From: an uncultured Gammaproteobacteria bacterium
GTDB lineage: Bacteria > Patescibacteriota > Microgenomatia > Levybacterales > JACOYD01
Assembly: GCA_964445095.1 (NCBI GenBank)
Contig: CAYUJR010000002.1
Location: 5,176-69,175, forward strand
Direction: 5' to 3'
Length of the DNA: 64,000 bases
Part shown: positions 963-64,000 of the stretch, piece after piece
Layout: the number at the start of each line of letters is the position of its first letter
Position numbering within the stretch: position 1 is the stretch's first letter
Translations under genes and position numbers: made by a program
The notes under the pieces: generated by a model
Database searches by the model: none
What the model was told of the DNA's origin: nothing
The model's input: only the letters and a program-made list of their open reading frames with translations

Positions 963-2647
963 TATGGCGAACACAAACCCTGTTTTTCTTTTTCTTATTT
1001 TTATTTTTTCTCGTAATTGCCAGACTCTTTTACTGGCAAATTATCCGAGGGAGTGAGCTTTTCCTGCAGGGTCTTTCCCAATACACCCAAACCACTGTTC
1101 ATTTACCCGAGCGGGGGAAGATCTATACTTCCGACAACTTTCCCTTGGTAGCTAATTCTCCCGGATATCTAGTTTTTGTTCAGGCAAGTCTGGTAAAAGA
1201 CCAGGACAGCAAAAAACAGCTCATCAATAAACTTTCTTATCAGCTTAGCCTAGAGGTGGCTTCTGTAGCTGCTACTTTAAATCAAGATTTGCCCTGGATT
1301 CCTATTAAGCAGCGAGTTGATAGATCAATAAAAGAGCAGATAGAAAGTTTAAAACTAACCGGAGTCGGATTTAACAGGCAGGATTTCCGCTTTTATCCGG
1401 AGGCTTCTCTGGCGGCTCATCTGACAGGGTTTACCGGTAAAGACGAGAGCGGGGCAGATAAGGGCTATTTTGGCCTGGAGGGATATTATGACAGAGAACT
1501 GCGCGGTAGAGTTGGCCGAGTCAAAGAGACCAAAGATGCTCAAGGAAAGCCGATTTTAATTGCCGAGCGGCTGGGAGAGAATAAAATTGACGGGCAAGAA
1601 CTAGTTTTACACCTTGATAGGAGAATTCAATTTATAGCAGAAAATGCCTTAAGAGAAGGCGTAGAGCGCTACGGGGCCAAGGGAGGAACAGTGGCGGTGA
1701 TGGATCCTCAAAGCGGAGGAATTATGGCCTCTGCCTCCTATCCCAATTATGAGCAGGAGAAATACTTTAATTATGGCGAGGAGCAGTTTCGCGATTCTCT
1801 AATTTCGGATACTTATGAGCCGGGTTCAACCTTTAAGGTTTTGACTATGGCGGCGGCGTTTAATGAGAATGCGGTGACGGTGGACACTAAATGCGACTCT
1901 TGTGGCGGTCCGGTGACTATTTTTGATTACACTATTAGAAATTGGAATGATAAGTATTTTCCAGATACTAATATGAGAGATGTGATTATTCATTCCGATA
2001 ATACCGGCATGGTCTTTGTCTCCAAAAAATTGGGACTGGATAAAATGTTTACTTATCTCGAGAAATTTGGTATTGGCAGTTCAACCGGCATTGATTTACA
2101 GGGTGAAGCAAGTAGTAAGCTGCGGCCAAAAGACCAGTGGTATCCGATTGATCTGGCGACAGCCGCTTTTGGTCAGGGAGTGGCGGTTACTCCGATTCAA
2201 ATGCTGACGGCGGTTTCGGCTCTGGCTAACGGCGGTCGCCTGATGGAGCCCCACGTGGTCGCCAAAATTAAAGATAGCGGCGGTAAGGAATTTAATATCA
2301 AGCCAAAAGTGGTGCGAGAAGTAATTTCTCCAAATACCGCTCAACTCATCACGGAGATGATGGTAAACGCGGTAGATAATGGTGAAGCTAAATTTGCCAA
2401 GCCTCGCGGTTATCGCATTGCCGGAAAAACCGGTACCGCCCAGATCCCGATAGCCGGACATTATGATCCCAACCGGACCGTGGCTTCTTTTGTCGGTTTT
2501 GCGCCGGCGGATGATCCTAAATTTGTGATGATTGTGATAATTCGTGAACCAACCGCTTCAGTTTTTGGTTCGGAAACCGCCGCCCCCATTTTCTTCAAAA
2601 TCACCCGAGAATTATTAAGTTACTACAACATCCCCCCGAAGGAGTAG
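959..2647 (+). CDS. ftsI: Peptidoglycan D,D-transpeptidase FtsI (class B PBP)
   Basis: N-terminal poly-Phe TM segment. SxxK (GSTFK), SDN (HSDNTG) and KTG(T) motifs are all present. Position follows ftsL. Confidence 0.9.
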   Translation: MIWRTQTLFFFFLFLFFLVIARLFYWQIIRGSELFLQGLSQYTQTTVHLPERGKIYTSDNFPLVANSPGYLVFVQASLVKDQDSKKQLINKLSYQLSLEVASVAATLNQDLPWIPIKQRVDRSIKEQIESLKLTGVGFNRQDFRFYPEASLAAHLTGFTGKDESGADKGYFGLEGYYDRELRGRVGRVKETKDAQGKPILIAERLGENKIDGQELVLHLDRRIQFIAENALREGVERYGAKGGTVAVMDPQSGGIMASASYPNYEQEKYFNYGEEQFRDSLISDTYEPGSTFKVLTMAAAFNENAVTVDTKCDSCGGPVTIFDYTIRNWNDKYFPDTNMRDVIIHSDNTGMVFVSKKLGLDKMFTYLEKFGIGSSTGIDLQGEASSKLRPKDQWYPIDLATAAFGQGVAVTPIQMLTAVSALANGGRLMEPHVVAKIKDSGGKEFNIKPKVVREVISPNTAQLITEMMVNAVDNGEAKFAKPRGYRIAGKTGTAQIPIAGHYDPNRTVASFVGFAPADDPKFVMIVIIREPTASVFGSETAAPIFFKITRELLSYYNIPPKE

Positions 2648-2649
2648 TT

Positions 2650-3240
2650 TTAGGGTGAGTAAAATAAAGACAATGCTCAATCCTACAGATTATTTAATCT
2701 ATTGAAGATGGATCAAATTTGGGAAAGTCTTCATTTAAATATGCAGAACGAGGATCCCTTTTGGAGAAACCAAAAGTCCTCCCTCTCTCTGGTTGTCGCC
2801 TGACCACAATCTCAACCTCTTCTCCTGCTCTTCTTGCTGCTTCTTCCAATTCTGCCACACCTGCTCTTAATGTTCTTTCTCCTGCTCCAGGGGTACGCTC
2901 ATAGAGAGTAGTAGGTTCTCCTATAAATTTAATTGAGCCATCTTCTCCCCTTTTTGTTCCTATGGGTCTTAATCCCACGACTGCGTTTAAGGCAATATTA
3001 TCGCCTGTGTGTCGCCGCCTGGTTTAGCTTCTTTTCTCATGTAGAAGAATTTAGCAAATAGTAATTCAAAAGTCAAGTGTATGTCTTGTGGCGTTGAGCT
3101 TCAAATGGCCTGTGATGAGTTCTATCGAACCATGCCATGGCTCTGAGTTTATCGAAGGGTTATAGCATTGAGCCTGCCGAAATGCTTGCCCTGAGTCCAT
3201 CGAATGGGGTAAAATATGGGAAGAAAATATGAGTTTATTT
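2650..3240. other. Anomalous GC-/CT-rich non-genic-looking segment between ftsI and lexA (degraded gene or structured RNA; not identifiable)
   Basis: Composition differs sharply from the flanking AT-rich DNA. Overlapping ORFs on both strands (2694-2978 minus; 2719-2904 plus). No SD or promoter context. The minus-strand ORF starts at GTG and is rich in AGA/GGA/GAA codons. Confidence 0.3.
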
Positions 3241-3246
3241 TTCCTC

Positions 3247-3276
3247 TTGACAGACTGACTATTTAGTCAGTATACT
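3247..3276 (+). promoter_or_regulatory. lexA promoter with embedded perfect palindromic operator (putative SOS box)
   Basis: TTGACA at 3247-3252, then 18 bp, then TATACT at 3271-3276. The ATG follows 9 nt later, so the mRNA is near-leaderless. The perfect inverted repeat ACTGACTA-TT-TAGTCAGT (3254-3271) fills the spacer. Confidence 0.6.
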
Positions 3277-3285
3277 GGATGGGTT

Positions 3286-3900
3286 ATGGATAAAATAACT
3301 GCCCGTCAGGCAGAAGTTTTGAAACTGATTTATAAATCGATTTCCGATTCCGGTTACCCCCCGACTTTGGCCGAACTGCGTGAGTCTTTGGATGTTTCTT
3401 CCAATCAGGCAGTTTTGGATATTCTAAAAATTTTAGAAGATAAAGGTTATATACAGAAAGAGGAAGGAACAGCAAGAACCATTAGAATTTTAGATAAAGG
3501 CATTAAAGAATTGGGTTTAAAGCAAGTTGCTCCTGTTGCAGGTATCAGCGCAGCCGGCCCATATATGCAAGCCTATGAAATTAATGAATGGAAAGTTATA
3601 GACGATGTACAAGTAACCCCAAAAGACCGTCTGGTAAGAATTTCCGGGGATTCCATGATTGAGGCAGGCATTAATGATGGAGACATTGTCATAGTTCGTG
3701 AATCTAAAGAATTTAAAAACAGGGATATAGTTTTAGCCAGAAATAATGATGAAACAACAGTTAAAAGGTTTGTGCATGATGACGGTAAGGTTTACTTAAA
3801 ACCGGAAAACCCAAAATATAGAAATATTCCCATATATCCGGAGACTAGATTATTGGGTAAAGTTGTAGGTATACTTGGGAAAAGTAAAATTAATGACTAA
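3286..3900 (+). CDS. lexA: LexA-type transcriptional repressor (S24 peptidase)
   Basis: Canonical LexA winged-HTH N-domain (TARQAEVLKLI...YPPTLAEL...GYI). Ala-Gly cleavage site (AAGP), GDSM serine and VKRF lysine are present. The palindromic operator lies in its own promoter. Confidence 0.9.
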   Translation: MDKITARQAEVLKLIYKSISDSGYPPTLAELRESLDVSSNQAVLDILKILEDKGYIQKEEGTARTIRILDKGIKELGLKQVAPVAGISAAGPYMQAYEINEWKVIDDVQVTPKDRLVRISGDSMIEAGINDGDIVIVRESKEFKNRDIVLARNNDETTVKRFVHDDGKVYLKPENPKYRNIPIYPETRLLGKVVGILGKSKIND

Positions 3901-4717
3901 TGTTATGATACCGCAAATTATAAACAGAACAGGATTAGACCATCAGCCTAACAGAAATAATGCTAAAAAGCTTTTATATCCGGAAGATTTTATAAATAAA
4001 ATTATGTGTGGGGATGCTATCGAAATAATGAAACAAATCCCTAATCAAAAAGTAGACCTAGTTGTTACTTCGCCTCCTTATAATCTCAAAAATTCTACCG
4101 GTAACGGAATGAAAGACGGACGAGGTGGTAAATGGGCAAATGCTGCACTACAAAATGGATACACACATCACGACGATTGTATGCCCCATGATAAATATGT
4201 TAAATGGCAAAAAGAATGTTTGAATGAAATGATGAGAATAATTCCAGAAGATGGCGCAATTTTTTATAATCATAAATGGCGTGTTCAGGATGGCTTATTA
4301 CAAGATCGCCAAGATATCGTGGCTGGATTTCCTGTCAGGCAAATTATTATTTGGAAGAGAAAAGGAGGTCTTAATTTCAATTCCGGTTACTTCTTGCCTA
4401 CTTATGAAGTTATTTACCTTATAGCTAAACCGAAGTTTAAATTAGCGCCAAAAGCAAATGCTTATGGTGATGTTTGGGAATTTACCCAAGAAATGAAAAA
4501 TGAGCATCCCGCTGCTTTCCCTGTCAAATTAATTGATCGTATCATTTCTTCAACCAATGCAAAAATAATTCTTGATCCTTTTATGGGTTCAGGTACAACA
4601 GCTATTTCTGCGATTAATTTTAATAGAAAATATATAGGTATTGATATTTCACCGGAGTATTGTAAGATGGCACAGGAGCGAATTGAGCGCCACAATGCGC
4701 AAATAAAACTCCTGTAA
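3893..4717 (+). CDS. Beta-class N4-cytosine/N6-adenine DNA methyltransferase of a type II R-M system
   Basis: Motif IV TSPPY (VVTSPPYNL) precedes motif I DPFMGSGTT, which is beta-group order. SPPY is typical of N4C MTases. The ORF is open from TTG 3875; the start is placed at ATG 3893 and overlaps the lexA stop. Confidence 0.8.
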   Translation: MTNVMIPQIINRTGLDHQPNRNNAKKLLYPEDFINKIMCGDAIEIMKQIPNQKVDLVVTSPPYNLKNSTGNGMKDGRGGKWANAALQNGYTHHDDCMPHDKYVKWQKECLNEMMRIIPEDGAIFYNHKWRVQDGLLQDRQDIVAGFPVRQIIIWKRKGGLNFNSGYFLPTYEVIYLIAKPKFKLAPKANAYGDVWEFTQEMKNEHPAAFPVKLIDRIISSTNAKIILDPFMGSGTTAISAINFNRKYIGIDISPEYCKMAQERIERHNAQIKLL

Positions 4718-4721
4718 AACT

Positions 4722-5519
4722 ATGGCAAGTAAACCGATTATTTATACAAAACAAACGCTAATTGATAAACTTAAAGAAATTGTGGTTATGGGTTGGATTC
4801 CAAACGCCCGGCGAGGTAATTCTGGGGGTATAGGAAATACATTAGAAGATTTACTTGGTATTAAAGAAAATAATTTACCAATTCCAAACGCCGCTGAATG
4901 GGAGTTAAAAACTCAACGTATTAATTCTTCTTCATTAACGACCCTTTTTCATTCAGAGCCCTCACCTCGAGCTATTCGTTTTGTTCCACAAGTTTTGTTG
5001 CCAAAATATGGATGGGCTCATCAGGAAGATGGCAAGAAATATGCCAAAGGTGAGATGAGTTTTCGGCAAACAATTCATGGTCAATCAAGAAGTGATCGTG
5101 GTTTTATGGTTATTATTGATCGTTCAGAGAAAAAGATTTTAATTTCCTTTGATTCAAAAAGTGTGGCCATAAAGCATAAAGACTGGCTCGAATCAGTGAA
5201 AAAACGTGTTGGATTAAAAGAACTTGACCCCCAACCATATTGGGGGTTTGATGATTTAGAACATAAAGCCGGAACAAAATTACTTAATACCTTCTATGTT
5301 CAAGCTGAAGTGAAAGTTGAACGTAAAAAAGAATATTATAAATATACAAAAATTATGATGCTCCAAAAATTCAGTTTTGAAGGATTTTTGAAAGCATTGG
5401 AAGAAGGAAAAATTCTTGTAGATTTTGATGCTCGTACAGGACATAATCATGGAACAAAGTTTAGGATGAGACAGGATTGTTTACCAATACTTTATGAAAA
5501 AGTAACGGTGATTATTTAA
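4722..5519 (+). CDS. Type II restriction endonuclease partner of the MTase (size and context fit MvaI/BcnI-like enzymes)
   Basis: Starts 5 nt after the MTase stop. At 265 aa it matches the size of monomeric MvaI/BcnI-family REases that pair with N4C MTases. No motif strictly recognised; the call rests on context. Confidence 0.5.
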   Translation: MASKPIIYTKQTLIDKLKEIVVMGWIPNARRGNSGGIGNTLEDLLGIKENNLPIPNAAEWELKTQRINSSSLTTLFHSEPSPRAIRFVPQVLLPKYGWAHQEDGKKYAKGEMSFRQTIHGQSRSDRGFMVIIDRSEKKILISFDSKSVAIKHKDWLESVKKRVGLKELDPQPYWGFDDLEHKAGTKLLNTFYVQAEVKVERKKEYYKYTKIMMLQKFSFEGFLKALEEGKILVDFDARTGHNHGTKFRMRQDCLPILYEKVTVII

Positions 5520-5567
5520 ACATTAATCAGAAAAAGAAATTTTGGAGAATTTAAGAAAGGTAAAGAT

Positions 5568-6230
5568 ATGAATTCAACAACAGAAAAACTCATAGAACGA
5601 GTTAGCCAACTTTTGTCTAAGGGGCAATCTGTCGCTGGGACACGATACAATGATAGTTCTGAACATGTTTTCGCTCCAGACGAAGTAAATAGTACCCCAT
5701 TTCATGCATGGAAGAATAACTCACAAAACTGCGTTTTAATGGTTTGTGGAGAAAACAGTCCTTATTATAAAAACTTTATTGAAGGAGTGAAAATAGCTCG
5801 CCCTAGCGATGTAGATCGTGGTATTGGCATACTCACAGCACTGAAAGAAGATTTGGAGTTAGGTTATTTAACCAAAGTTAGAGATTTGGTAAGCGCTGAA
5901 ATCTTTACAGATTTTATCGAAATGGCTCAGCACCTCTTGGATAATAACTATAAAGACCCTTCCGCTTCCCTGATAGGTGCTGTATTGGAAAATGGCTTGA
6001 GACAAATCGCACAGAAAAATACAGTTGAAGTCAAATCGGGCGATGACATAGGATCACTTAATACAAAGCTCGCAGACAAAGAAGTTTATAGTCGCTTGTT
6101 ACAGAAACAAATTCAGGCCTGGAAGGCAATAAGAGATAGTGCTGATCATGGTAAGTTTGAGGATTACAAAACAGAGGATGTTAAGGCTATGTTAGAAGGT
6201 GTGAAAAGATTTTTAACGGAGAATTTGTAG
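5568..6230 (+). CDS. HEPN-domain protein, Abi-like (DUF4145-like), RNase-type Rx4HG motif
   Basis: The C-terminal helical domain carries ...AWKAIRDSADHGKF..., i.e. R-x4-H-G. It sits immediately downstream of the R-M genes, as stand-alone HEPN/Abi genes often do. Confidence 0.55.
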   Translation: MNSTTEKLIERVSQLLSKGQSVAGTRYNDSSEHVFAPDEVNSTPFHAWKNNSQNCVLMVCGENSPYYKNFIEGVKIARPSDVDRGIGILTALKEDLELGYLTKVRDLVSAEIFTDFIEMAQHLLDNNYKDPSASLIGAVLENGLRQIAQKNTVEVKSGDDIGSLNTKLADKEVYSRLLQKQIQAWKAIRDSADHGKFEDYKTEDVKAMLEGVKRFLTENL

Positions 6231-6232
6231 AT

Positions 6233-6589
6233 ATGCAAAATCAGATACCAATAACAAATAAAATAAAAACCATCAAACTTGAGAAGATGCCAACTCTTAT
6301 TAAAGAGTTTATGGTTGATAGAACTCCTCGCAATAAAAACTTCGGCCAACTCTTAAAAATTTTCAATTCTTGCTACAAATCTTTTTCTCCTGATCCATCT
6401 AACGATTTGCGAATACTGAAGTACGTCGAGGATATGAAGAGTGGGGAATGGAATGATTTGATAATTATAACTTTTCAAAATGGACAGGCTATAGACGGTG
6501 TGCATAGAGGTATTGCATATCTAAAATGCGTAAAAGAAGGAAGTAAGGAGGATACTCTTCCGCAGATTTATTTAAGTAGAGTAAAATAA
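6233..6589 (+). CDS. Hypothetical 118-aa protein whose first 8 codons are duplicated at 6591
   Basis: The ORF starts 3 nt after the HEPN stop. The 24-nt segment holding its start (6231-6254) is repeated exactly at 6589-6612. Confidence 0.5.
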   Translation: MQNQIPITNKIKTIKLEKMPTLIKEFMVDRTPRNKNFGQLLKIFNSCYKSFSPDPSNDLRILKYVEDMKSGEWNDLIIITFQNGQAIDGVHRGIAYLKCVKEGSKEDTLPQIYLSRVK

Positions 6590-6590
6590 T

Positions 6591-6737
6591 ATGCAAAATC
6601 AGATACCAATAAATTGGCAGTTGAAAGCTGTAGAATTAGTAAGTAAATCGCACGAGGCAAGAAAGAAATCAAAAGAGCTTTTGGAAGAAGCGAAAAGAAA
6701 AGTTGAGGAAATGGTTGAAAAAGGAGGTGAGAATTAG
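6591..6737 (+). CDS. 48-aa coiled-coil small ORF (MQNQIPINWQ...EKGGEN) sharing its start with the preceding gene
   Basis: Not in the ORF track because it is under 60 aa. It has the same ribosome context and first 7 residues as 6233-6589. Its 3' end encodes the AAAGGAGGTGA SD of the next gene, and its stop overlaps that gene's GTG start. Confidence 0.4.
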   Translation: MQNQIPINWQLKAVELVSKSHEARKKSKELLEEAKRKVEEMVEKGGEN

Positions 6738-7108
6738 TGAAACTTGATGAATTTATAACGAATGTTTTAATGGATATTGACAATGGATTAGCAGTCGCAA
6801 AAGAAAAAGCTAATAGAAATTATTATGTGTCATCTACAGATAAAGGGGGAGTTAGTTTCGATATTGCCGTAACCACAACTTCTTCAAGTGGTTCAAAAGC
6901 CGAAGGAACAGCAAAAGTAGGCATAATCCAAGTTTTGGGTGCTGGTGTTAATGCCGGGTTAGAAAGTAAGGAAGAAAATAGTCATGTAAGCAGAATACGG
7001 TTTTTTGTTCATGTACCAAGTAGGACAAAAACTGAAATTGAAGAGGATTCTAGAGAAATAGCAGAGTTAAATAGAAGACAAAGAGAAGAATCTAGTTTTG
7101 GAACTTAG
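6737..7108 (+). CDS. Small cytoplasmic protein, trypco2-like (trypsin-co-occurring domain 2-like) pattern
   Basis: GTG start 7 nt after a strong SD. Pattern: an amphipathic helix, then VSFDIAVTTT...KAEGTAKVGIIQVLGAGVNAG...H.SRIRFFVHV, resembling trypco2 conflict-system domains. This is recalled from memory, not aligned. Confidence 0.35.
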   Translation: MKLDEFITNVLMDIDNGLAVAKEKANRNYYVSSTDKGGVSFDIAVTTTSSSGSKAEGTAKVGIIQVLGAGVNAGLESKEENSHVSRIRFFVHVPSRTKTEIEEDSREIAELNRRQREESSFGT

Positions 7109-7306
7109 CTGGATGACCTCCCTCTTTCATTTCTCCTTCGTCCTTTGGGACTATGGAAGGACACAGTAAAATTACGGAAGGGCAGGCACGCCGGTTTGCC
7201 CTGAGCGAGGCCAAAGGAAAGAAATTGCAATTGTGGAGGATAGTGTAGCACAGTAATTTTATGAAACAGATGAAAATTAAATTAGCAATTTTTGAAGGAA
7301 GTGAGT

Positions 7307-7325
7307 CGGTGACAAATTGTCACCG
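7307..7325. repeat. Perfect 19-nt palindrome CGGTGACAA-A-TTGTCACCG in the spacer after the defence-like operon
   Basis: Exact inverted repeat. No U-tract follows it, so it is more likely a protein-binding site than an intrinsic terminator. Confidence 0.6.
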
Positions 7326-7465
7326 TTTGAAAATGTTGGCTGTTTACGAGATAATTATTTACCAAGTAATATAATTAAAAAACTAAAATGAGCAATTATT
7401 ACAACATTTAAATTCCCGAGGTGTTTTTGGTTGCATTGCGGATATATTTCCATAAATAATACTAA

Positions 7466-7891
7466 ATGAATAAAGACAAAAGTTATACATGGAATGCCCC
7501 AGACAAAGAAGTTAGCCAGTTAAGCAGTAAAGAGATTGTAATAATATATATTCTTAAAAAGATTAGTCCCTATCTAACAACTCTAACAAGATTTTTCCCA
7601 TTCTCATTACTCTGGCAGGATCGAAGATTTCATTACAAACACAAAAAGATTGCTGACGCCGATGATCTTATTATTAAAATTGCCGGAGAAAAAGACTTTT
7701 GGTTTAAATTATTTTCTTACGATGAAGATGATCGTTTTTTAAACATTATCGGTAAATTTATACCTTTAAAAAAAGACTCTAGCAAAGATAAATTGTTCCA
7801 GTATTTTAGAAAGAAAATGGAGAATGAAGACTTTTATATAAATGACTTGGAGGATGGGAGAGTTAAAATTTCCTTAATGCAAAAGAAATAG
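7466..7891 (+). CDS. Hypothetical protein (AT-rich orphan)
   Basis: 141-aa ORF with no recognisable motif. Very AT-rich and isolated by a 357-bp spacer. Confidence 0.4.
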   Translation: MNKDKSYTWNAPDKEVSQLSSKEIVIIYILKKISPYLTTLTRFFPFSLLWQDRRFHYKHKKIADADDLIIKIAGEKDFWFKLFSYDEDDRFLNIIGKFIPLKKDSSKDKLFQYFRKKMENEDFYINDLEDGRVKISLMQKK

Positions 7892-8001
7892 ATATGAGAT
7901 TATAATCAAAACAAGCTGGTCCTTCGGTAGACTCAGGATAAAGGGATTTTGGAAATGTTTTAATTTTCGTTATACTTAAATAGTAGAGAGGAGGTGAGGA
8001 A

Positions 8002-31256: not shown

Positions 31257-31856
31257 ATGCCGCTTATGTATATTTACTTTGAAGATTGGAGTGCTTTTAA
31301 GTGGATGCTTGGGGGAAAGGGTGTACCTAGAAGATTTATTGCAGATAGATTTATTAAGGCTATTGCTTCGGAAACTCACCCGCAAGACTTGGGATATAGC
31401 GGTGTGGTTTTGGAGTATGATGCAAATCCATTTAGGGCTGATTCGACATATGTAATTGGACCATCTGATAGCACGTTTACTTATAATGGACAAGAACTGG
31501 AAGAACAAATAGCAGCTTTAAGTTTAACGTATAATGAGAAAAACAGATTTCGGGCACTACTGCGTTTTGGATTCGATCAAAGATTAAAGTATGTTGAACA
31601 GGCAGTAACCACTGTAATTGGAGGAAGGCGATTAAAAGACCATCCGGTAGATACAGTAGATGTTCATTTAGATAAACGAACAGGTAGTAGGTTGCCGCAT
31701 TTTGATTTTTTTACAGAAGGAACTTTGGATAGGCTTAATAGAATAATAGGTTTTAGAGATAGGGAAAATATTTTGTTTTCTCCCCGTGAAGGTAGATTTT
31801 TTAGACAAGGAACTCCTCGAGCGCGGTTAGAAGGAAATAACATAATAAGAAGATAG
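31257..31856 (+). CDS. Hypothetical protein
   Basis: 199-aa ORF after ftsZ. No recognisable motif. Confidence 0.4.
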   Translation: MPLMYIYFEDWSAFKWMLGGKGVPRRFIADRFIKAIASETHPQDLGYSGVVLEYDANPFRADSTYVIGPSDSTFTYNGQELEEQIAALSLTYNEKNRFRALLRFGFDQRLKYVEQAVTTVIGGRRLKDHPVDTVDVHLDKRTGSRLPHFDFFTEGTLDRLNRIIGFRDRENILFSPREGRFFRQGTPRARLEGNNIIRR

Positions 31857-31880
31857 ATTTTTTTCTTAGCAATGAATAAC

Positions 31881-31912
31881 AAGGTCGGACCTTATGTCAA
31901 GGTCCGACCTTA
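31881..31912. repeat. REP-like hairpin repeat, copy 1 (13-bp stem, 5-nt loop)
   Basis: AAGGTCGGACCTT-ATGTC-AAGGTCCGACCTT followed by A. Identical to the copy at 32635-32666. Confidence 0.8.
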
Positions 31913-31941
31913 ATAATCTAAACTTTAATAACATAACGTAC

Positions 31942-32619
31942 TCACAATTCATCTTCCAGAATTAATTCGCCAAGTAGCTCTGTTGATTCTTGACTATAGT
32001 CTTCAACAAAGCTCTGATAAGATAGAACATCTTTTAAGCCTTTTAGTTGGGCATTACGGAAATAGCCAAGAATTTCCTGCGGTTTAATCCAGCTTGCTTC
32101 TTTCTTACCTAAATAATAGTGGTAACTTGAAAAATCTATAAAATCGATTGATGGACTAGAGATATTAATTGGATTAAGGTGGATGTATCGTGAAAGGTGA
32201 AGAAGATAAGATTCGGTTTCAATAAGCGCGGCTTTATATTTATTTTGAAAAAGAGAACCCACGCGTTGATATTTCTTATTGAAGTACATAGCGTAGCTAG
32301 TTAATACACGCCTCGTGAGTTTTATAATCCCATCTATAGTATGCTGTTTTATTTGTAAATGAATATGATTTGGCATAAGAGAAAACGCAAGAAGGTCTAC
32401 CTCGGATGATAAGTTTAATCTAATGAATCTTCTAAGACGCATATGAAGATCTGCTTGTTGTTTGATTTCTTCAACAGGAGAAAGATACAGCTTTAAATAA
32501 TAGAGGAATGTTGCGCAATCTTGCTTATCTATGAAGATTTGCCGTTTTTCTACGCCACGATTATAGATGTGATAATATCCATTCTCAACATATGTCTTAA
32601 CAGTATTTTTAGCAGGCAT
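31942..32619 (-). CDS. IS200/IS605-family Y1 (HUH) transposase, RAYT-like
   Basis: HUH motif (MPNHIHLQIK) and C-terminal catalytic-Tyr helix RYIHLNPINI (Y1_Tnp yixxNP pattern). Flanked by identical hairpins. Confidence 0.8.
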   Translation of the reverse strand: MPAKNTVKTYVENGYYHIYNRGVEKRQIFIDKQDCATFLYYLKLYLSPVEEIKQQADLHMRLRRFIRLNLSSEVDLLAFSLMPNHIHLQIKQHTIDGIIKLTRRVLTSYAMYFNKKYQRVGSLFQNKYKAALIETESYLLHLSRYIHLNPINISSPSIDFIDFSSYHYYLGKKEASWIKPQEILGYFRNAQLKGLKDVLSYQSFVEDYSQESTELLGELILEDEL

Positions 32620-38617: not shown

Positions 38618-39775
38618 TTATTGTTTCAGATTGACTGGTCGTGTGTCAAGGACAAAACCGCTACGAAGAATATCTGAACCATATTTTCTTTTTAGCATCA
38701 GAATAGTTTTTACTCGCGGTATTAAATTATTTTCTTTTTTGAGTTTTGATGTCCTGACGCCTAGCAGGCGAACTTTAGTTTTTTTATCCCAGGCTGTATT
38801 AAATAATTCTACTGCCTGATGATACAGTTCGCTAGGATTTTTGGGAAAATCAGAGATTGTTTTACTTTTTTGTTTATCGGTAAAGTTGGGATAGCGAAGT
38901 GATATCCCCACGCATCCGGCGGTTAAATTTTTATCCAGTAATTCATAAAATACTTCGTCACATAATTGAAAAAGAATAGAGTTGATATGGCTGGCGTTAT
39001 TAGTATTTTTTGCTAAGGTAGTTGAGCGGCCGATGCTTTTTATTTCTGCTCTTTCTCCAAACCAGATATTGTCAATTCCGCAAGCCGCCAGGTACAGATT
39101 ATATCCAAATTTACCCAAAAGATTTGTTAGTTTAATCTCATTCTTTACCAAATCGGCGATTATTTTAATGCCGTTATTCCCTAGAACTATTTGTGTTTTG
39201 GGACCAACTCCGGGTAAATACTCAACAGGTAGAGGATGGACAATTCTTTTAATATCTTCTTTGCCAATAGTAAATAATCCATTTGGTTTACCTAGGTTAC
39301 AGGCAATTTTAGCCAGTATTCTAGAAATAGATAACCCTATAGAAACCGGTAGACTGACCTGGTTTTGAACTTGGCGGCGTATTTTCTCACACAGTATTTT
39401 TGTATCGGGGTATAATTCTTGGCATCCAGTAAAGTCCAGGAAACCTTCGTCTAAGCCGGTTTGTTCAAGCTTAGGAGTAAACCTTTTTATAATTGTTAAA
39501 ACCATCGCCGAATGAGCTTGGTAGGCAGAAAAATTTCCCCCCACGTAAATCCCTTGTGGACATAAAATTCTCGCTTGGTAGACAGGCATTCCAGATTTAA
39601 CTCCGTAGCTTCGGGCTTCATAAGAAGCAGTTGAAACAACGCCGCGGTTAACATTTTGACCTTGAGGATCAACTCCACAGACAATAACTGGTTTACCGCG
39701 CAGTCTGGGGTTTAGTTTTTGTTCAACCGAAGCAAAAAAGGCATCTAAATCAAAATGAGCAATGGGCAGAAACAT
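38618..39775 (-). CDS. dinB: DNA polymerase IV (Y-family) DinB
   Basis: IAHFDLDAFFASVE catalytic start with SYEARSYGVKSGMP. 385 aa. Confidence 0.9.
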   Translation of the reverse strand: MFLPIAHFDLDAFFASVEQKLNPRLRGKPVIVCGVDPQGQNVNRGVVSTASYEARSYGVKSGMPVYQARILCPQGIYVGGNFSAYQAHSAMVLTIIKRFTPKLEQTGLDEGFLDFTGCQELYPDTKILCEKIRRQVQNQVSLPVSIGLSISRILAKIACNLGKPNGLFTIGKEDIKRIVHPLPVEYLPGVGPKTQIVLGNNGIKIIADLVKNEIKLTNLLGKFGYNLYLAACGIDNIWFGERAEIKSIGRSTTLAKNTNNASHINSILFQLCDEVFYELLDKNLTAGCVGISLRYPNFTDKQKSKTISDFPKNPSELYHQAVELFNTAWDKKTKVRLLGVRTSKLKKENNLIPRVKTILMLKRKYGSDILRSGFVLDTRPVNLKQ

Positions 39776-39864
39776 AGTAAGTTTATATTTCCATAAAAAA
39801 TCCGAAAAGTCAATCGGTAAATTGAGGTTACCTGGCTATTTATGTTAAAATACTAAAAAAAGAT

Positions 39865-39936
39865 GGACTCGTAGCTCAGCGGTAGAGCGCTGCATTCACA
39901 TTGCAGATGCCAGAGGTTCAAATCCTCTCGAGTCCA
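39865..39936 (+). tRNA. tRNA-Val (anticodon CAC)
   Basis: Acceptor stem GGACTCG/CGAGTCC with discriminator A. D-arm GCTC-AGCGGTA-GAGC. Anticodon stem-loop CTGCA-TTCACAT-TGCAG. T-arm AGAGG-TTCAAAT-CCTCT. 72 nt; CCA not encoded. Confidence 0.85.
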
Positions 39937-39946
39937 CCCGCGCTTT

Positions 39947-40936
39947 ATGAAGATTGTTTTTCTCTGCCGCTTTTCTGCTTATAGAGTTGGTGGTGTGGAA
40001 ACGCATGTAAAAAAAGTTGCCGCCGGGTTAGAAAATAAGGGCCATACAGTTAATATTATCAGTAACATCAAATATCCGAAGATAAAATTTTTAGGGTTAC
40101 TGGTCATTTGGTGGCAGTTATTAAAAACATTTAAAGTTATTAAAACGGCTGATGTCGTTCATGTTCATGACGTTTTTATCTGGTATCTGCCGCTTCGTTT
40201 TCTATTCCTCAAAAAGCCTGTTTTTATTACTTTCCATGGCTATGAGACCAAATTTCCTCCTTCAAGATGGTCAATATTAATTAGAAAAATTAGCGAGAAA
40301 TTATCTTGGGGAAATATTTGCGTTGGTGATTATATTAAAAAATGGTATGGGACAAAGCCGACTTACACCACCTATGGTGGCGTAAGAATACTACCAATAA
40401 ATACCAATACTACAAATACTACCAATAAAAATAATAAACTCAAAATTTTATTTATTGGAAGATTAGAGAAGGATACGGGAGTTAATATTTATTTACAAGT
40501 CTTAAAGATTCTTAAGAAGAAAAGAATTAGGTTTGAGTTTGAAGCCTGTGGAGATGGACAGTTGCGGAGTGAGGTAGAAAAAATTGGCCAAGTCCATGGT
40601 TTTGTCAAAGATATATCTTTCTATTTAGCGAGGTCGGACCTGGTTTTTAGCTCGTCTTATCTTTCTATTTTAGAAGCAATGGTGAATAAAAAGCTGGTCT
40701 TTGCAGTTTTTAATAATCCGCTTAAAGAAGATTATCTCAAAATGACTTCTTTTGCTCAATGGATAATTATTGAAAATTCGTCGATTAAGTTGGTCAAAAA
40801 AATGCAATACTACTTAAGTCATAAAATTACCCGAGAAAAATTAACAAACAGGGCTTATCAGTGGGTCAAAAGTCAAACATGGGAGGAGGTCGTAAAAGTT
40901 TATGAAAGTTTCCATAGTGGTTACGGTCTTAAATGA
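39947..40936 (+). CDS. GT-B glycosyltransferase, family 4/group 1
   Basis: GT4-type N-terminus (RVGGVETHV) and a C-terminal EX7E-like region. Contains an Asn/Thr-rich low-complexity insert from short tandem repeats at 40387-40435. Confidence 0.7.
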   Translation: MKIVFLCRFSAYRVGGVETHVKKVAAGLENKGHTVNIISNIKYPKIKFLGLLVIWWQLLKTFKVIKTADVVHVHDVFIWYLPLRFLFLKKPVFITFHGYETKFPPSRWSILIRKISEKLSWGNICVGDYIKKWYGTKPTYTTYGGVRILPINTNTTNTTNKNNKLKILFIGRLEKDTGVNIYLQVLKILKKKRIRFEFEACGDGQLRSEVEKIGQVHGFVKDISFYLARSDLVFSSSYLSILEAMVNKKLVFAVFNNPLKEDYLKMTSFAQWIIIENSSIKLVKKMQYYLSHKITREKLTNRAYQWVKSQTWEEVVKVYESFHSGYGLK

Positions 40937-41834
40937 AGAAGAGACAATAGGTGAGCTATTATCGTCAATACTTCAACAATCTGCGTTGCCAGATGAGGTG
41001 ATTGTTGTTGATGGAGGTTCAACTGACCTGACGGTCAGTAATATCAAATATCAAATATCAAATATCAAATATTTCAAAAGCAGATTAAGACCTTTTATTA
41101 AAAAAAGTAATAGGGCAATAGGTAGAAATTACGGGATTTCCAAGGCAAAAAATGAGATTGTCGCTCTCACCGACGCGGGATGCATTCTTGATAAAAATTG
41201 GTTAAAAAATATTACAACTCCATTCGAGAGTACAGAGGTCGATGTCGTTGCCGGATTTTATCAAGGATTACCGAAGAGTATTTTTGAAAAGTGTCTGGTG
41301 CCTTATGCTCTGGTTATGCCCGATAAGGTTAACCCCAAAACATTTCTGCCCGCTTCACGCTCGATGGCGCTGCGACGATCTATTTGGCAAAGGGCTGGTG
41401 GTTTTCCGGAAGAATTTTCAGATAATGAAGATTATGTATTTGCTCATAAATTAAAGAAAATGCATGCCAAAACTGTTTTTCAGAAAAAAGCGGTGGTTTT
41501 TTGGATGCCCAGAAAAAACTTGATAGAAGCTTTTATGATGTTTTTCAAGTTTGCTAAAGGGGATATGGAGGCCCAAATTGTCAGACCAAAGGTAGTATTA
41601 TTATTTCTGCGCTATATAATCGGACTGACTTTGGTTATACTGAGTATAGAAAGAATTTGGTTACCATCATATTTTTTAATACTAGTCACGGTTTATTTAT
41701 TTTGGGCAATTGGGAAAAATTATCGATATGTGGCTGACTGGCGAGCAATTTTTATCTTGCCACTTTTACAGCTAACAGCAGATACATCTGTTTTAACAGG
41801 AAGTATTTATGGGATATACAAAAGAGGCAATTAA
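40902..41834 (+). CDS. GT-A family 2 glycosyltransferase with C-terminal TM segments
   Basis: VSIVVTVLNEE...DEVIVVDGGSTD (GT2 DxD region). Contains an (ATATCAA)4 array at 41041-41075. Confidence 0.75.
   Translation: MKVSIVVTVLNEEETIGELLSSILQQSALPDEVIVVDGGSTDLTVSNIKYQISNIKYFKSRLRPFIKKSNRAIGRNYGISKAKNEIVALTDAGCILDKNWLKNITTPFESTEVDVVAGFYQGLPKSIFEKCLVPYALVMPDKVNPKTFLPASRSMALRRSIWQRAGGFPEEFSDNEDYVFAHKLKKMHAKTVFQKKAVVFWMPRKNLIEAFMMFFKFAKGDMEAQIVRPKVVLLFLRYIIGLTLVILSIERIWLPSYFLILVTVYLFWAIGKNYRYVADWRAIFILPLLQLTADTSVLTGSIYGIYKRGN
41041..41075 (+). repeat. (ATATCAA)x4 plus a degenerate fifth unit, in-frame in a GT2 gene
   Basis: Encodes SNIKYQISNIKYF. Confidence 0.9.
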
Positions 41835-63673: not shown

Positions 63674-64000
63674 TATGTTTGAAGTAAAAGAGGTTCAAGC
63701 AAAATCTATTCTGACAGAGACACATCTGAAAGACGCTGACTTTGACTATAGCGTCAATCCTTACATTGGTTGTCGTTTCGGCTGTATTTACTGCTATGCC
63801 AGTTTTATGGGAAGGTTTGTGGGAAAAAAAGTAAAGGATTGGGGAGAATATGTTTATGCCAAAGTCAACGCCCCAGAGTTACTCGAGAAGGAAATTAAGA
63901 AATTAAAGAACAAAGGTAAAGGTAAGACAATTTGGTTTAGTTCAGTCACCGATCCATATCAAGGACTAGAGATGAAATATCAATTAACCAGAAAATGCTT
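63674..64000 (+). CDS. Radical-SAM protein, SPL/DNA-photolyase-like family (3' truncated by window edge)
   Basis: CRFGCIYC is a CxxxCxxC cluster in the context typical of the spore-photoproduct-lyase family. The ORF runs off the window end. Confidence 0.7.

What the first reader, a model, noticed from the sequence alone, without database searches (positions are those of the whole stretch)
3247..3290. Textbook repressor-controlled promoter: perfect 8-2-8 palindrome filling the spacer between TTGACA and TATACT, near-leaderless lexA
Seen in the sequence: TTGACA (3247-3252), then ACTGACTA-TT-TAGTCAGT (3254-3271), then TATACT (3271-3276), then 9 nt to the ATG. The palindrome matches neither the E. 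coli CTGT-N8-ACAG box nor the Gram-positive GAAC-N4-GTTC box, so it may define a lineage-specific SOS box. dinB at 38618-39775 is a canonical SOS gene, but its upstream region does not carry the same palindrome, which is worth testing.
Basis: seen in the sequence. Interest (0 to 1): 0.5.

Follow-up and report, generated by a model that had tools for sequence, protein, structure and literature searches.

The report
LexA operator driving a restriction-modification operon
The palindrome is a real, strongly conserved binding site for the LexA repressor in its own promoter, but in this group of tiny uncultured bacteria the genes it visibly controls are LexA plus a restriction-modification (anti-phage) cassette, not the usual DNA-repair genes.

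Summary

A perfect 8-2-8 palindrome is not rare by itself. The window has 3, against about 1 expected. Position and conservation make this one real. Nineteen distinct lexA promoters from Microgenomates (Patescibacteria) carry CTGACyA-N2-TrGTCAG between a TTGACA -35 and the -10. Several show symmetric two-arm changes. A tandem lexA paralogue has its own variant, CCGAC...GTCGG.

The ORF is a bona fide cleavable LexA.

The "lineage-wide SOS box" reading is only partly supported. Four dinB promoters and three recA promoters lack the box. About 430 kb of related DNA held no further site.

lexA overlaps or abuts an MvaI/BcnI-type methyltransferase and endonuclease. In 21 of 21 informative related loci the gene after lexA belongs to a restriction-modification system, of five different architectures.

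Best reading: LexA occludes a (near-)leaderless promoter and makes a lexA-M-R operon autoregulated and probably DNA-damage-inducible.

I could not read the one paper on the Patescibacteria SOS network, so prior description cannot be excluded.

The parts
3247..3252 (+). -35 hexamer TTGACA of the lexA operon promoter
   Evidence: Read directly. Scored 11 of 12 with an 18-nt spacer in the promoter scan. TTGAC(A/T/C) sits 0-2 nt upstream of the palindrome in all 19 distinct orthologous promoters.
3254..3271 (.). LexA operator ACTGACTA-TT-TAGTCAGT. The core is CTGAC-N6-GTCAG (3255-3270), with half-site centres 11 bp apart. It fills the promoter spacer and overlaps the first base of the -10.
   Evidence: Perfect 8-2-8 inverted repeat, unique in the window. 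Conserved at 1.73 bits per column against 0.31 in the flanks across 19 distinct lexA promoters. Variants change symmetrically: ACTGACCATATGGTCAGT in L007, ATGACCATATGGTCAT in L011, ACCGACTATATGGTCGGT in L148, and CCCGACTAAATAGTCGGG before the L004 paralogue. Binding by LexA is inferred, not shown.
3271..3276 (+). -10 hexamer TATACT
   Evidence: An A/T-rich -10-like hexamer starts at or next to the last T of the palindrome in the orthologous promoters.
3283..3286 (+). Predicted transcription start zone, giving a leaderless mRNA or one with a leader of at most 3 nt. This is inferred, not mapped.
   Evidence: Only 9 nt separate the -10 from the ATG. In most orthologues the start codon lies 11-15 nt after the palindrome. 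Two exceptions (L012, L098) have a longer leader with a GGAGG-type Shine-Dalgarno sequence.
3286..3900 (+). lexA, 204 aa: winged-HTH LexA DNA-binding domain plus S24 self-cleaving peptidase domain
   Evidence: PF01726 at 1e-17 and PF00717 at 1.2e-25. Full-length match to solved LexA structures. A90-G91 aligns with E. coli A84-G85, S123 with S119 and K160 with K156. These residues are invariant in 27 orthologues. More than 5000 homologues; the closest named ones are Candidatus Daviesbacteria LexA.
3893..4717 (+). Type II N4/N6 DNA methyltransferase. The ATG at 3893 overlaps the lexA stop codon by 8 nt; an alternative ATG lies at 3905.
   Evidence: PF01555 matched over 1-221 of 221 at 2.5e-41. 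PADLOC MTase_II at 1e-123. No + strand terminator-like site, and no room for a promoter, lies between lexA and this gene. Found 85-88% identical directly after lexA in L001, L003 and L004.
4722..5519 (+). MvaI/BcnI-family Type II restriction endonuclease, starting 4 nt after the methyltransferase stop
   Evidence: PF15515 matched over 1-227 of 227 at 5.3e-67. PADLOC REase_II at 1.3e-83. DNA homology to L001, L003 and L004 ends sharply at its stop codon, about 5520.
5568..8000 (+). Low-GC tail of the inserted island. It holds a weak HEPN-like ORF (5568-6230) and small ORFs of unknown function on the same strand. Membership of the operon is uncertain.
   Evidence: GC is 0.30-0.40 over 3200-8000 against 0.43-0.47 in the flanking ftsI and murE regions. 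HEPN scores only 9e-4, below Pfam's cut-off. No PADLOC hits. No + strand terminator-like site before 8603. This stretch is not shared with L001, L003 or L004.

Best explanation
The palindrome is the autoregulatory operator of the Microgenomates LexA repressor. A LexA dimer binds the two CTGAC/GTCAG half-sites, whose centres lie 11 bp apart on one face of the helix. The site fills the spacer between a near-consensus -35 and -10, so bound LexA blocks RNA polymerase. The promoter makes a leaderless or nearly leaderless mRNA that reads through lexA into a tightly coupled Type II methyltransferase and an MvaI/BcnI-type endonuclease, giving a lexA-M-R operon. Negative autoregulation would hold LexA, M and R at a low steady level. 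RecA-stimulated self-cleavage of LexA at Ala90-Gly91 would raise all three after DNA damage. This would include breaks and single-stranded DNA produced when invading DNA is cut. The same promoter-operator-lexA unit heads restriction-modification cassettes of five unrelated architectures across Microgenomates. In this lineage the operator therefore works chiefly as the control element of an exchangeable defence cassette, not as a box spread over DNA-repair genes. Shown here: the sequence anatomy, the conservation, the co-variation, the gene order and overlaps, and the absence of the box at the sampled recA and dinB promoters. Inferred: LexA binding, the transcription start, co-transcription, RecA-dependent cleavage, and the physiological logic.
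For: Anatomy. LexA identity and catalytic and cleavage residues. Operator conservation: it sits in the same promoter position in 19 distinct promoters from Daviesbacteria, Woesebacteria, Curtissbacteria, Levybacteria and others, at 1.73 against 0.31 bits per column. Variants change symmetrically in both arms. A tandem lexA paralogue has its own variant operator in the same promoter architecture, as expected for a dimeric repressor co-evolving with its site. Metagenome scan: among the rows returned, which were cut at a limit of 120, all 8 low-GC hits with an adjacent TTGAC are lexA promoters. Operon: the methyltransferase start overlaps or abuts the lexA stop in the window. The next gene overlaps lexA or lies 20 nt or less away in most related loci, and no + strand terminator-like site follows. 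Restriction-modification genes follow lexA in 21 of 21 informative loci. RecA, the needed co-protease, exists in the lineage. No box was found at dinB or recA, nor elsewhere in about 430 kb.
Against: No binding, transcript or cleavage data exist; every functional step is inferred. The regulon test is thin. I had no complete genome. recA was sampled only in Levybacteria, and dinB is patchy in this lineage. uvrA, ssb, ruvAB, nrd and others were not tested. Weak or degenerate sites would be missed. Two related loci have a 146-nt gap between lexA and the methyltransferase, so an internal promoter is possible there. Inducing an endonuclease on DNA damage looks risky for the cell. This argues that autoregulated steady expression, rather than induction, may be the selected property.
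Confidence: 0.7

Rival explanations
1. Ordinary lineage-specific SOS box. The same LexA represses a dispersed regulon (recA, uvrA, translesion polymerases and others) through this motif or degenerate versions of it. The restriction-modification genes merely ride behind lexA.
For: LexA is canonical and apparently cleavable. LexA motifs are known to differ widely between phyla (PMC8565304). lexA operators are usually the strongest sites, so weaker regulon sites could escape my PSSM thresholds. Only a small fraction of any one genome was available.
Against: Four dinB promoters score below 4 bits. Three recA promoters score below 6 bits or lack the motif on reading. About 430 kb of Patescibacteria DNA yields no non-lexA site above 15 bits, and the one 14.5-bit hit lies inside a glycosyltransferase coding sequence. 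All stringent matches in Patescibacteria-like metagenome contigs are lexA promoters.
Confidence: 0.2
2. Integration hotspot without regulatory meaning. The conserved 3' end of lexA is simply a favoured recombination target for restriction-modification cassettes. These cassettes are expressed from their own signals, and the palindrome regulates only lexA.
For: Between the window and L004, DNA identity is about 60% over the 5' two-thirds of lexA. It then jumps to 73-94% from about 3700 through the end of the endonuclease gene and stops at about 5520. This is a cassette exchange with one crossover inside lexA. Five different R-M architectures occupy the same slot. Some loci have a 146-nt gap after lexA.
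Against: In most loci the downstream gene overlaps the lexA stop or starts within a few nucleotides. That leaves no room for a separate promoter. No terminator-like site follows lexA. Repeated independent capture into translationally coupled positions suggests selection for expression from the lexA promoter.
Confidence: 0.2
3. The palindrome is a C-box-like operator for a restriction-modification controller rather than for LexA.
For: The core GACT-ATTT-AGTC resembles the PvuII-type C-box half-operator GACT-N3-AGTC. C-regulated operons also start with a leaderless regulator mRNA (PMC2175313). The site heads an R-M operon.
Against: No small Xre-type C gene lies in 2900-5600. The spacing is N4, not N3, and there is one dyad rather than two. 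The site stays the same while the R-M type changes, and it changes when the lexA paralogue changes.
Confidence: 0.03
4. Chance palindrome or RNA hairpin with no operator function.
For: Perfect 8-2-8 palindromes occur about once per 64 kb by chance, and the window has three.
Against: It is conserved in 19 distinct promoters while the flanks are not. It lies upstream of the predicted transcription start, so it would not be in the RNA. No Rfam family matches there.
Confidence: 0.02

Closest known systems
Autoregulated lexA promoters with SOS boxes (E. coli CTGT-N8-ACAG; Gram-positive GAAC-N4-GTTC; many phylum-specific variants)
   Same: The repressor family and domain pair are the same, as are the cleavage site and catalytic dyad. 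It is a dyad-symmetric operator overlapping the core promoter of lexA itself. Motif divergence after lexA duplication (the L004 tandem paralogue) fits the model described in PMC8565304.
   Different: The half-site sequence (CTGAC) and spacing differ. No copies were found at recA or dinB. lexA is the first gene of a restriction-modification operon. In E. coli, by contrast, lexA is co-transcribed with dinF, and in B. subtilis it lies divergent from yneA (both from established knowledge).
C-protein (controller) regulated Type II restriction-modification operons, e.g. PvuII, Esp1396I, AhdI
   Same: An autoregulatory DNA-binding protein is encoded as the first gene of an R-M transcription unit. The operator lies inside the promoter, the regulator mRNA is leaderless, and the half-site GACT/AGTC is similar (PMC2175313).
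   Different: The regulator here is a 204-aa LexA with a self-cleaving S24 domain, not an Xre-type protein of about 80 aa. There is a single dyad with N4 spacing instead of two dyads with N3. The predicted mode is repression only. The output is predicted to respond to DNA damage. The gene order is lexA-M-R.
LexA-binding motif and SOS network of the Patescibacteria (Sanchez-Osuna, Barbe and Erill, Environ Microbiol 2017, doi 10.1111/1462-2920.13826)
   Same: Same superphylum and same regulator. That study defined a Patescibacteria LexA motif by comparative genomics and in vitro assays. I know this only from its title and from how PMC8565304 and PMC7739468 cite it.
   Different: Unknown. The paper is not held, so I could not check whether its motif is this palindrome or whether it reports R-M genes in the lexA operon. 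PMC7739468 cites it among examples of direct-repeat LexA motifs, which would differ from the inverted repeat seen here.
DNA-damage or infection-responsive regulators of defence systems (CapH/CapP of CBASS; WYL regulators BrxR/CapW of BREX and CBASS)
   Same: A repressor gene placed directly upstream of a defence operon couples defence expression to a DNA-damage-type signal. This comes from general knowledge; BrxR is described in PMC9122589, which I saw only in a search list.
   Different: Those regulators are not LexA and use a WYL ligand domain or a separate metallopeptidase. Here the classical RecA-LexA module itself would be the sensor.

Membership tests
LexA repressor (SOS regulator) | N-terminal LexA-type winged-HTH DNA-binding domain | tested here: met
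   PF01726 matched over 1-65 of 65 at E 1e-17. Aligns to the E. coli LexA DNA-binding domain 1lea.
LexA repressor (SOS regulator) | C-terminal S24 peptidase domain with Ser/Lys catalytic dyad | tested here: met
   PF00717 at 1.2e-25. S123 in GDSM and K160 in VKR align with E. coli S119 and K156 and are invariant in 27 orthologues.
LexA repressor (SOS regulator) | Ala-Gly self-cleavage site in the linker | tested here: met
   A90-G91 in ISAAGP aligns with E. coli VAAGEP A84-G85 and is invariant. Cleavage itself was not tested.
LexA repressor (SOS regulator) | Dyad operator overlapping its own promoter (autoregulation) | tested here: met
   Sequence anatomy and conservation with symmetric co-variation. 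This is in silico evidence only.
LexA repressor (SOS regulator) | The same box upstream of DNA-repair or translesion genes (recA, dinB and others) | tested here: not met
   Four dinB promoters score below 4 bits. Three Levybacteria recA promoters lack the motif. No non-lexA site appears in about 430 kb. The sample is limited and no complete genome was available.
LexA repressor (SOS regulator) | RecA-nucleoprotein-stimulated cleavage and DNA-damage induction | not testable with these tools
   RecA genes exist in the lineage. There are no biochemical or expression data.
E. coli-type or Gram-positive-type SOS box | CTGT-N8-ACAG or GAAC-N4-GTTC consensus | tested here: not met
   ACTGACTATTTAGTCAGT contains neither pattern.
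C-protein-controlled restriction-modification system | Small Xre-type HTH controller protein | tested here: not met
   The only regulator gene in 2900-5600 is the 204-aa LexA.
C-protein-controlled restriction-modification system | [quoted passage not shown] | tested here: not met
   There is a single dyad, with a GACT-N4-AGTC core. The consensus is taken from PMC2175313.
C-protein-controlled restriction-modification system | Regulator gene co-transcribed with the endonuclease gene | tested here: inconclusive
   The gene order is lexA-M-R, with overlapping or 4-nt junctions and no terminator-like site. No transcript data exist.
Type II restriction-modification system, MvaI/BcnI type | Cognate N4/N6 methyltransferase next to an MvaI/BcnI-family endonuclease, both full length | tested here: met
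   PF01555 matched over 1-221 of 221 and PF15515 over 1-227 of 227. PADLOC MTase_II and REase_II. The recognition sequence and activity were not tested.
Patescibacteria LexA motif of Sanchez-Osuna et al. 2017 | Identity with the published motif | not testable with these tools
   The paper is not in the held library, and citing papers give no sequence.

The most novel reading that the evidence does not exclude
In Microgenomates the classical RecA-LexA switch has been largely withdrawn from DNA repair. It now serves as the resident controller of an exchangeable defence slot. One conserved promoter-operator-lexA unit drives whichever restriction-modification cassette sits behind it, and at least five unrelated architectures are seen. 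Cassettes are swapped by recombination anchored in the conserved 3' end of lexA. Restriction-modification expression would then be both autoregulated and DNA-damage-responsive. recA and dinB would be controlled by something else.
Probability: 0.4. Interest if true: 0.8.

Novelty: new variant of a known kind. Interest (0 to 1): 0.6.

Why it matters
If the reading holds, it has three consequences.

1. It gives a clean, experimentally tractable LexA operator for a large uncultured lineage. The natural specificity variants (CTGAC, CCGAC and ATGAC half-sites) could be used to map the LexA recognition code.

2. It describes a way of regulating restriction-modification systems that the 2013 review of R-M regulation does not list (PMC3874152): control by the SOS repressor itself rather than by a C protein.

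3. It suggests that in genome-reduced, phage-exposed episymbionts the SOS circuit is kept mainly to govern defence. The lexA locus would act as a hotspot where defence cassettes are exchanged.

It also warns annotators that finding a LexA and its box does not by itself imply a conventional SOS regulon.

Tried and rejected
- An exact look-up of the window's LexA in the contig index found nothing.
- The genome-contig scan with a LexA alignment returned only 11 loci.
- The metagenome scan for ACTGACYANNTRGTCAGT was cut at 120 rows. Most hits were chance or unrelated: high-GC contigs, sites before TetR-family genes and a methyltransferase-like family, and a tandem array in L034. Only the 8 low-GC hits with an adjacent TTGAC were informative.
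- A viral-contig scan for TTGAC-NN-operator gave two unrelated phage contigs where the palindrome is part of a longer GC-clamped hairpin.
- The second perfect CTGAC-N6-GTCAG in the window (41023-41038) lies inside a GT2 glycosyltransferase coding sequence, so I rejected it as an operator.
- TTGACTATAGCGTCAA at 63742 lies inside a radical-SAM coding sequence.
- The CCGA-N8-TCGG repeat before dinB looked at first like the CCGAC operator variant. The spacing is not conserved in orthologues, and it is followed by a T-run, so it looks like a terminator hairpin for the upstream tRNA.
- The 199-aa ORF after ftsZ, at the ancestral lexA position, is not a LexA.
- Rfam found only one tRNA in the window.
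- The Patescibacteria SOS paper could not be retrieved by PubMed id or DOI. Citing papers give no motif. A text search for the half-site sequence returned only noise.
- I found no simple correlation between recognition-helix residues and operator class, so I dropped that line.

Full report
**1. Observation**

The sequence is exactly as described.
- TTGACA lies at 3247-3252.
- ACTGACTA-TT-TAGTCAGT lies at 3254-3271.
- TATACT lies at 3271-3276.
- Nine nucleotides then precede the ATG at 3286.

The inverted-repeat finder reports 8-nt arms, 100% complementary, 2 nt apart. The promoter scan scores the site 11 of 12 with an 18-nt spacer, the best in the region. The 18-mer has no second copy in the window even with three mismatches, with 0.15 expected.

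A perfect 8-2-8 palindrome of any sequence is not rare. The window holds three, and block shuffles give about one. The case for function has to come from context and conservation.

**2. The gene**

ORF 3286-3900 is a canonical LexA, with PF01726 plus PF00717. It aligns over its full length with solved LexA structures. A90-G91 falls on the E. coli cleavage bond A84-G85, S123 on S119 and K160 on K156. All of these are invariant in an alignment of 27 orthologues. The closest named homologues are Candidatus Daviesbacteria and other Microgenomates, within the Patescibacteria.

**3. The palindrome is a conserved operator**

I collected 23 lexA promoters, 19 of them distinct. They came from a genome scan, a metagenome motif scan and contig look-ups. 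I later fetched three further loci with contig look-ups; their promoters were read separately.
- In every one, TTGAC(A) is followed within 0-2 nt by (A)CTGACyA-N2-TrGTCAG(T), and an A/T-rich -10 begins at or next to the last T.
- Anchored on the palindrome, information content is 1.73 bits per column inside the site and 0.31 in the flanks.
- The two central bases vary freely (TT, AA, AT, TA).
- Changes in the arms are mirrored: ACTGACCA..TGGTCAGT in a Curtissbacteria locus, ATGACCA..TGGTCAT in L011, and ACCGACTA..TGGTCGGT in L148.
- In L004 two lexA genes lie in tandem. The upstream paralogue (47% identical) has the same promoter layout but the operator CCCGACTAAATAGTCGGG.

Mirrored substitutions and paralogue-specific variants are what a dimeric repressor co-evolving with its own site should leave. 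They also match the duplication-and-divergence model for LexA motifs (PMC8565304).

The start codon lies 11-15 nt after the palindrome in most loci. The mRNA is therefore predicted to be leaderless or nearly so. Two loci have a longer leader with a GGAGG-type ribosome-binding site.

**4. Is it an SOS box?**

I tested the genes I could reach.
- dinB (38618-39775, confirmed IMS family) has no site.
- Three dinB orthologues with the same dinB-lepB-parB synteny also have no site. All score below 4 bits, although a promoter block (TTGACTTTTcGGGTTTTTTATGG) is conserved among them.
- The window holds no recA or uvrA.
- A partial recA next to lexA in L119 let me retrieve Levybacteria RecA proteins and three different recA promoters. 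None carries the motif.
- A position-weight matrix built from the operators found only lexA promoters above 15 bits in about 430 kb of Patescibacteria DNA.
- The single 14.5-bit hit (41022) lies inside a glycosyltransferase coding sequence.
- In the truncated metagenome scan, all eight Patescibacteria-like hits were lexA promoters.

This is a limited sample, with no whole genome. As far as it goes, the box is private to lexA.

**5. What the promoter actually drives**

The methyltransferase ORF begins at ATG 3893, 8 nt inside lexA, or at 3905. The endonuclease begins 4 nt after the methyltransferase stop.
- The methyltransferase is a full-length N4/N6 enzyme (PF01555).
- The endonuclease is a full-length MvaI/BcnI-family enzyme (PF15515).
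- PADLOC calls them Type II MTase and REase.
- No + strand terminator-like site lies between 3300 and 8600.

The same lexA-M-R trio occurs in L001, L003 and L004.

Every other informative lexA locus also has restriction-modification genes directly downstream. The types differ:
- A fusion of about 650 aa (HSDR_N_2 plus N6_Mtase) followed by a Methylase_S specificity subunit, in 13 distinct loci.
- An Eco57I-type methyltransferase plus a BsuBI/PstI endonuclease, in L007.
- An N6_N4 methyltransferase plus a MutH-family endonuclease, in L148.
- A small HSDR_N_2-like protein with a convergent methyltransferase, in L150.
- L125 keeps only the methyltransferase.

That makes 21 of 21 informative loci and five architectures. 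The downstream gene usually overlaps lexA or lies within 20 nt of it.

**6. Genome context and mobility**

In several Microgenomates, lexA-R-M follows ftsZ and precedes ileS. In L012 it follows mraY. In the window it sits between ftsI and murE, genes that are normally adjacent (established knowledge of dcw clusters).

The window locus lies inside a 3200-8000 stretch of GC 0.30-0.40, flanked by GC 0.43-0.47. The slot after ftsZ holds an unrelated 199-aa ORF and an IS200-like transposase gene.

DNA identity between the window and L001 or L003 begins at the promoter (about 3200) and ends at the endonuclease stop (about 5520). Against L004 it is about 60% through the first two-thirds of lexA. It then rises to 73-94% from about 3700 to 5520. 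The cassette has therefore been exchanged between lineages, with one crossover inside the conserved 3' end of lexA.

**7. Mechanism proposed**

LexA dimers occupy the spacer operator and exclude RNA polymerase. The operon is negatively autoregulated, which gives low, buffered levels of LexA, M and R. RecA filaments promote LexA self-cleavage and de-repress all three. Such filaments form on single-stranded DNA after damage or after processing of cut foreign DNA.

The sequence-level facts are shown. Binding, the transcription start, co-transcription, cleavage and the benefit to the cell are inferred.

Induction of an endonuclease by damage looks hazardous. The selected property may therefore be autoregulated expression of promoter-less cassettes rather than inducibility.

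**8. Comparison with known systems**

It works like an autoregulated lexA promoter, and the protein passes every sequence-level test for LexA. It fails the one regulon-level test I could apply.

It also resembles C-protein-controlled restriction-modification operons:
- the regulator is the first gene;
- the operator lies in the promoter;
- the regulator mRNA is leaderless;
- the GACT/AGTC half-site is shared (PMC2175313).

It is not a member of that family. The regulator is not an Xre-type C protein, there is one dyad rather than two, and the spacing is N4 rather than N3. A review of restriction-modification regulation mentions LexA only in connection with toxin-antitoxin genes (PMC3874152).

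**9. Novelty and limits**

The only study of the Patescibacteria SOS network (Sanchez-Osuna et al. 2017) is not held. I cannot say whether this palindrome or the operon link has been published. One citing paper groups that study with direct-repeat LexA motifs.

I therefore rate the operator as a new or possibly known member of the LexA-box kind. I rate the lexA-restriction-modification operon as a new variant of known regulatory kinds, at moderate confidence. Interest is 0.6.

Noticed in passing
L004 1195-1243 (operator 1208-1225) and L004 1241-1879: A second lexA paralogue (47% identical) lies in tandem upstream of the R-M-linked lexA. It has the same promoter layout but a diverged operator, CCCGACTAAATAGTCGGG. 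A single-copy lexA in L148/L149 uses the related ACCGACTATATGGTCGGT. Together these form a natural specificity series (CTGAC, CCGAC and ATGAC half-sites).
   Followed up: partly
window 3700-5520 versus L004 about 2450-4260: Nucleotide identity jumps from about 60% to 73-94% inside the 3' third of lexA and stops at the endonuclease stop codon. The restriction-modification cassette seems to be exchanged by recombination anchored in lexA.
   Followed up: partly
L138 5955-6000; L142 5953-6000; L156 535-582: Levybacteria recA promoters carry a different inverted repeat between TTGCAT/TTGTAT and the -10: TAACA-N6-TGTTA in L138 and L142, and an imperfect, differently spaced version in L156. recA may have its own repressor, which I did not identify.
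   Followed up: partly
window 31257-32619: In relatives, lexA-R-M sits directly after ftsZ and before ileS. In the window this slot holds an unrelated 199-aa ORF and an IS200-like (Y1_Tnp) transposase gene on the minus strand, suggesting a rearrangement.
   Followed up: partly
window 39776-39865; L145 1-144; L146 1-141; L147 1-132: dinB promoters share a conserved block, TTGACTTTTcGGGTTTTTTATGG, just downstream of a tRNA gene. All three orthologous contigs end about 140 nt upstream of dinB, within or near that tRNA. dinB has few close relatives; the next-best hits, at about 40% identity, are Bacillota polymerases. It may have been acquired horizontally.
   Followed up: partly
window 41040-41076: A short tandem repeat (ATATCAAAT, about 4 copies, 9-nt period, in frame) lies inside the GT2 glycosyltransferase gene 40902-41834. 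It sits directly after a chance CTGAC-N6-GTCAG match.
   Followed up: no
L027 296; L052 170; L080 5819; L096 738: In unrelated metagenome contigs the same ACTGAC-N6-GTCAGT palindrome lies just upstream of TetR-family regulator genes. In L075, L093, L110 and L118 it lies upstream of a conserved methyltransferase-like family. Searches by motif alone for this LexA box will therefore pick up other regulators' operators.
   Followed up: no
L119 790-792: The recA gene immediately upstream of lexA in this Levybacteria contig has an in-frame TGA where orthologues have Gly (GVEMGIIQ). This could be a sequencing error, a nonsense mutation or recoding.
   Followed up: partly
L004 4575-5249; window 5568-6230: Genes after the R-M cassette look defence-related: a ThsB-type TIR protein in L004 (2.4e-20) and a weak HEPN-like ORF in the window (9e-4, below the Pfam cut-off). 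The region downstream of lexA may be a small defence island.
   Followed up: no
window 63675-64000: A radical-SAM ORF runs off the end of the window. On reading it resembles the SplB-type 'DNA repair photolyase' group, but only PF04055 was detected. It contains an intragenic TTGACTATAGCGTCAA, a 2-mismatch match to the operator core.
   Followed up: no
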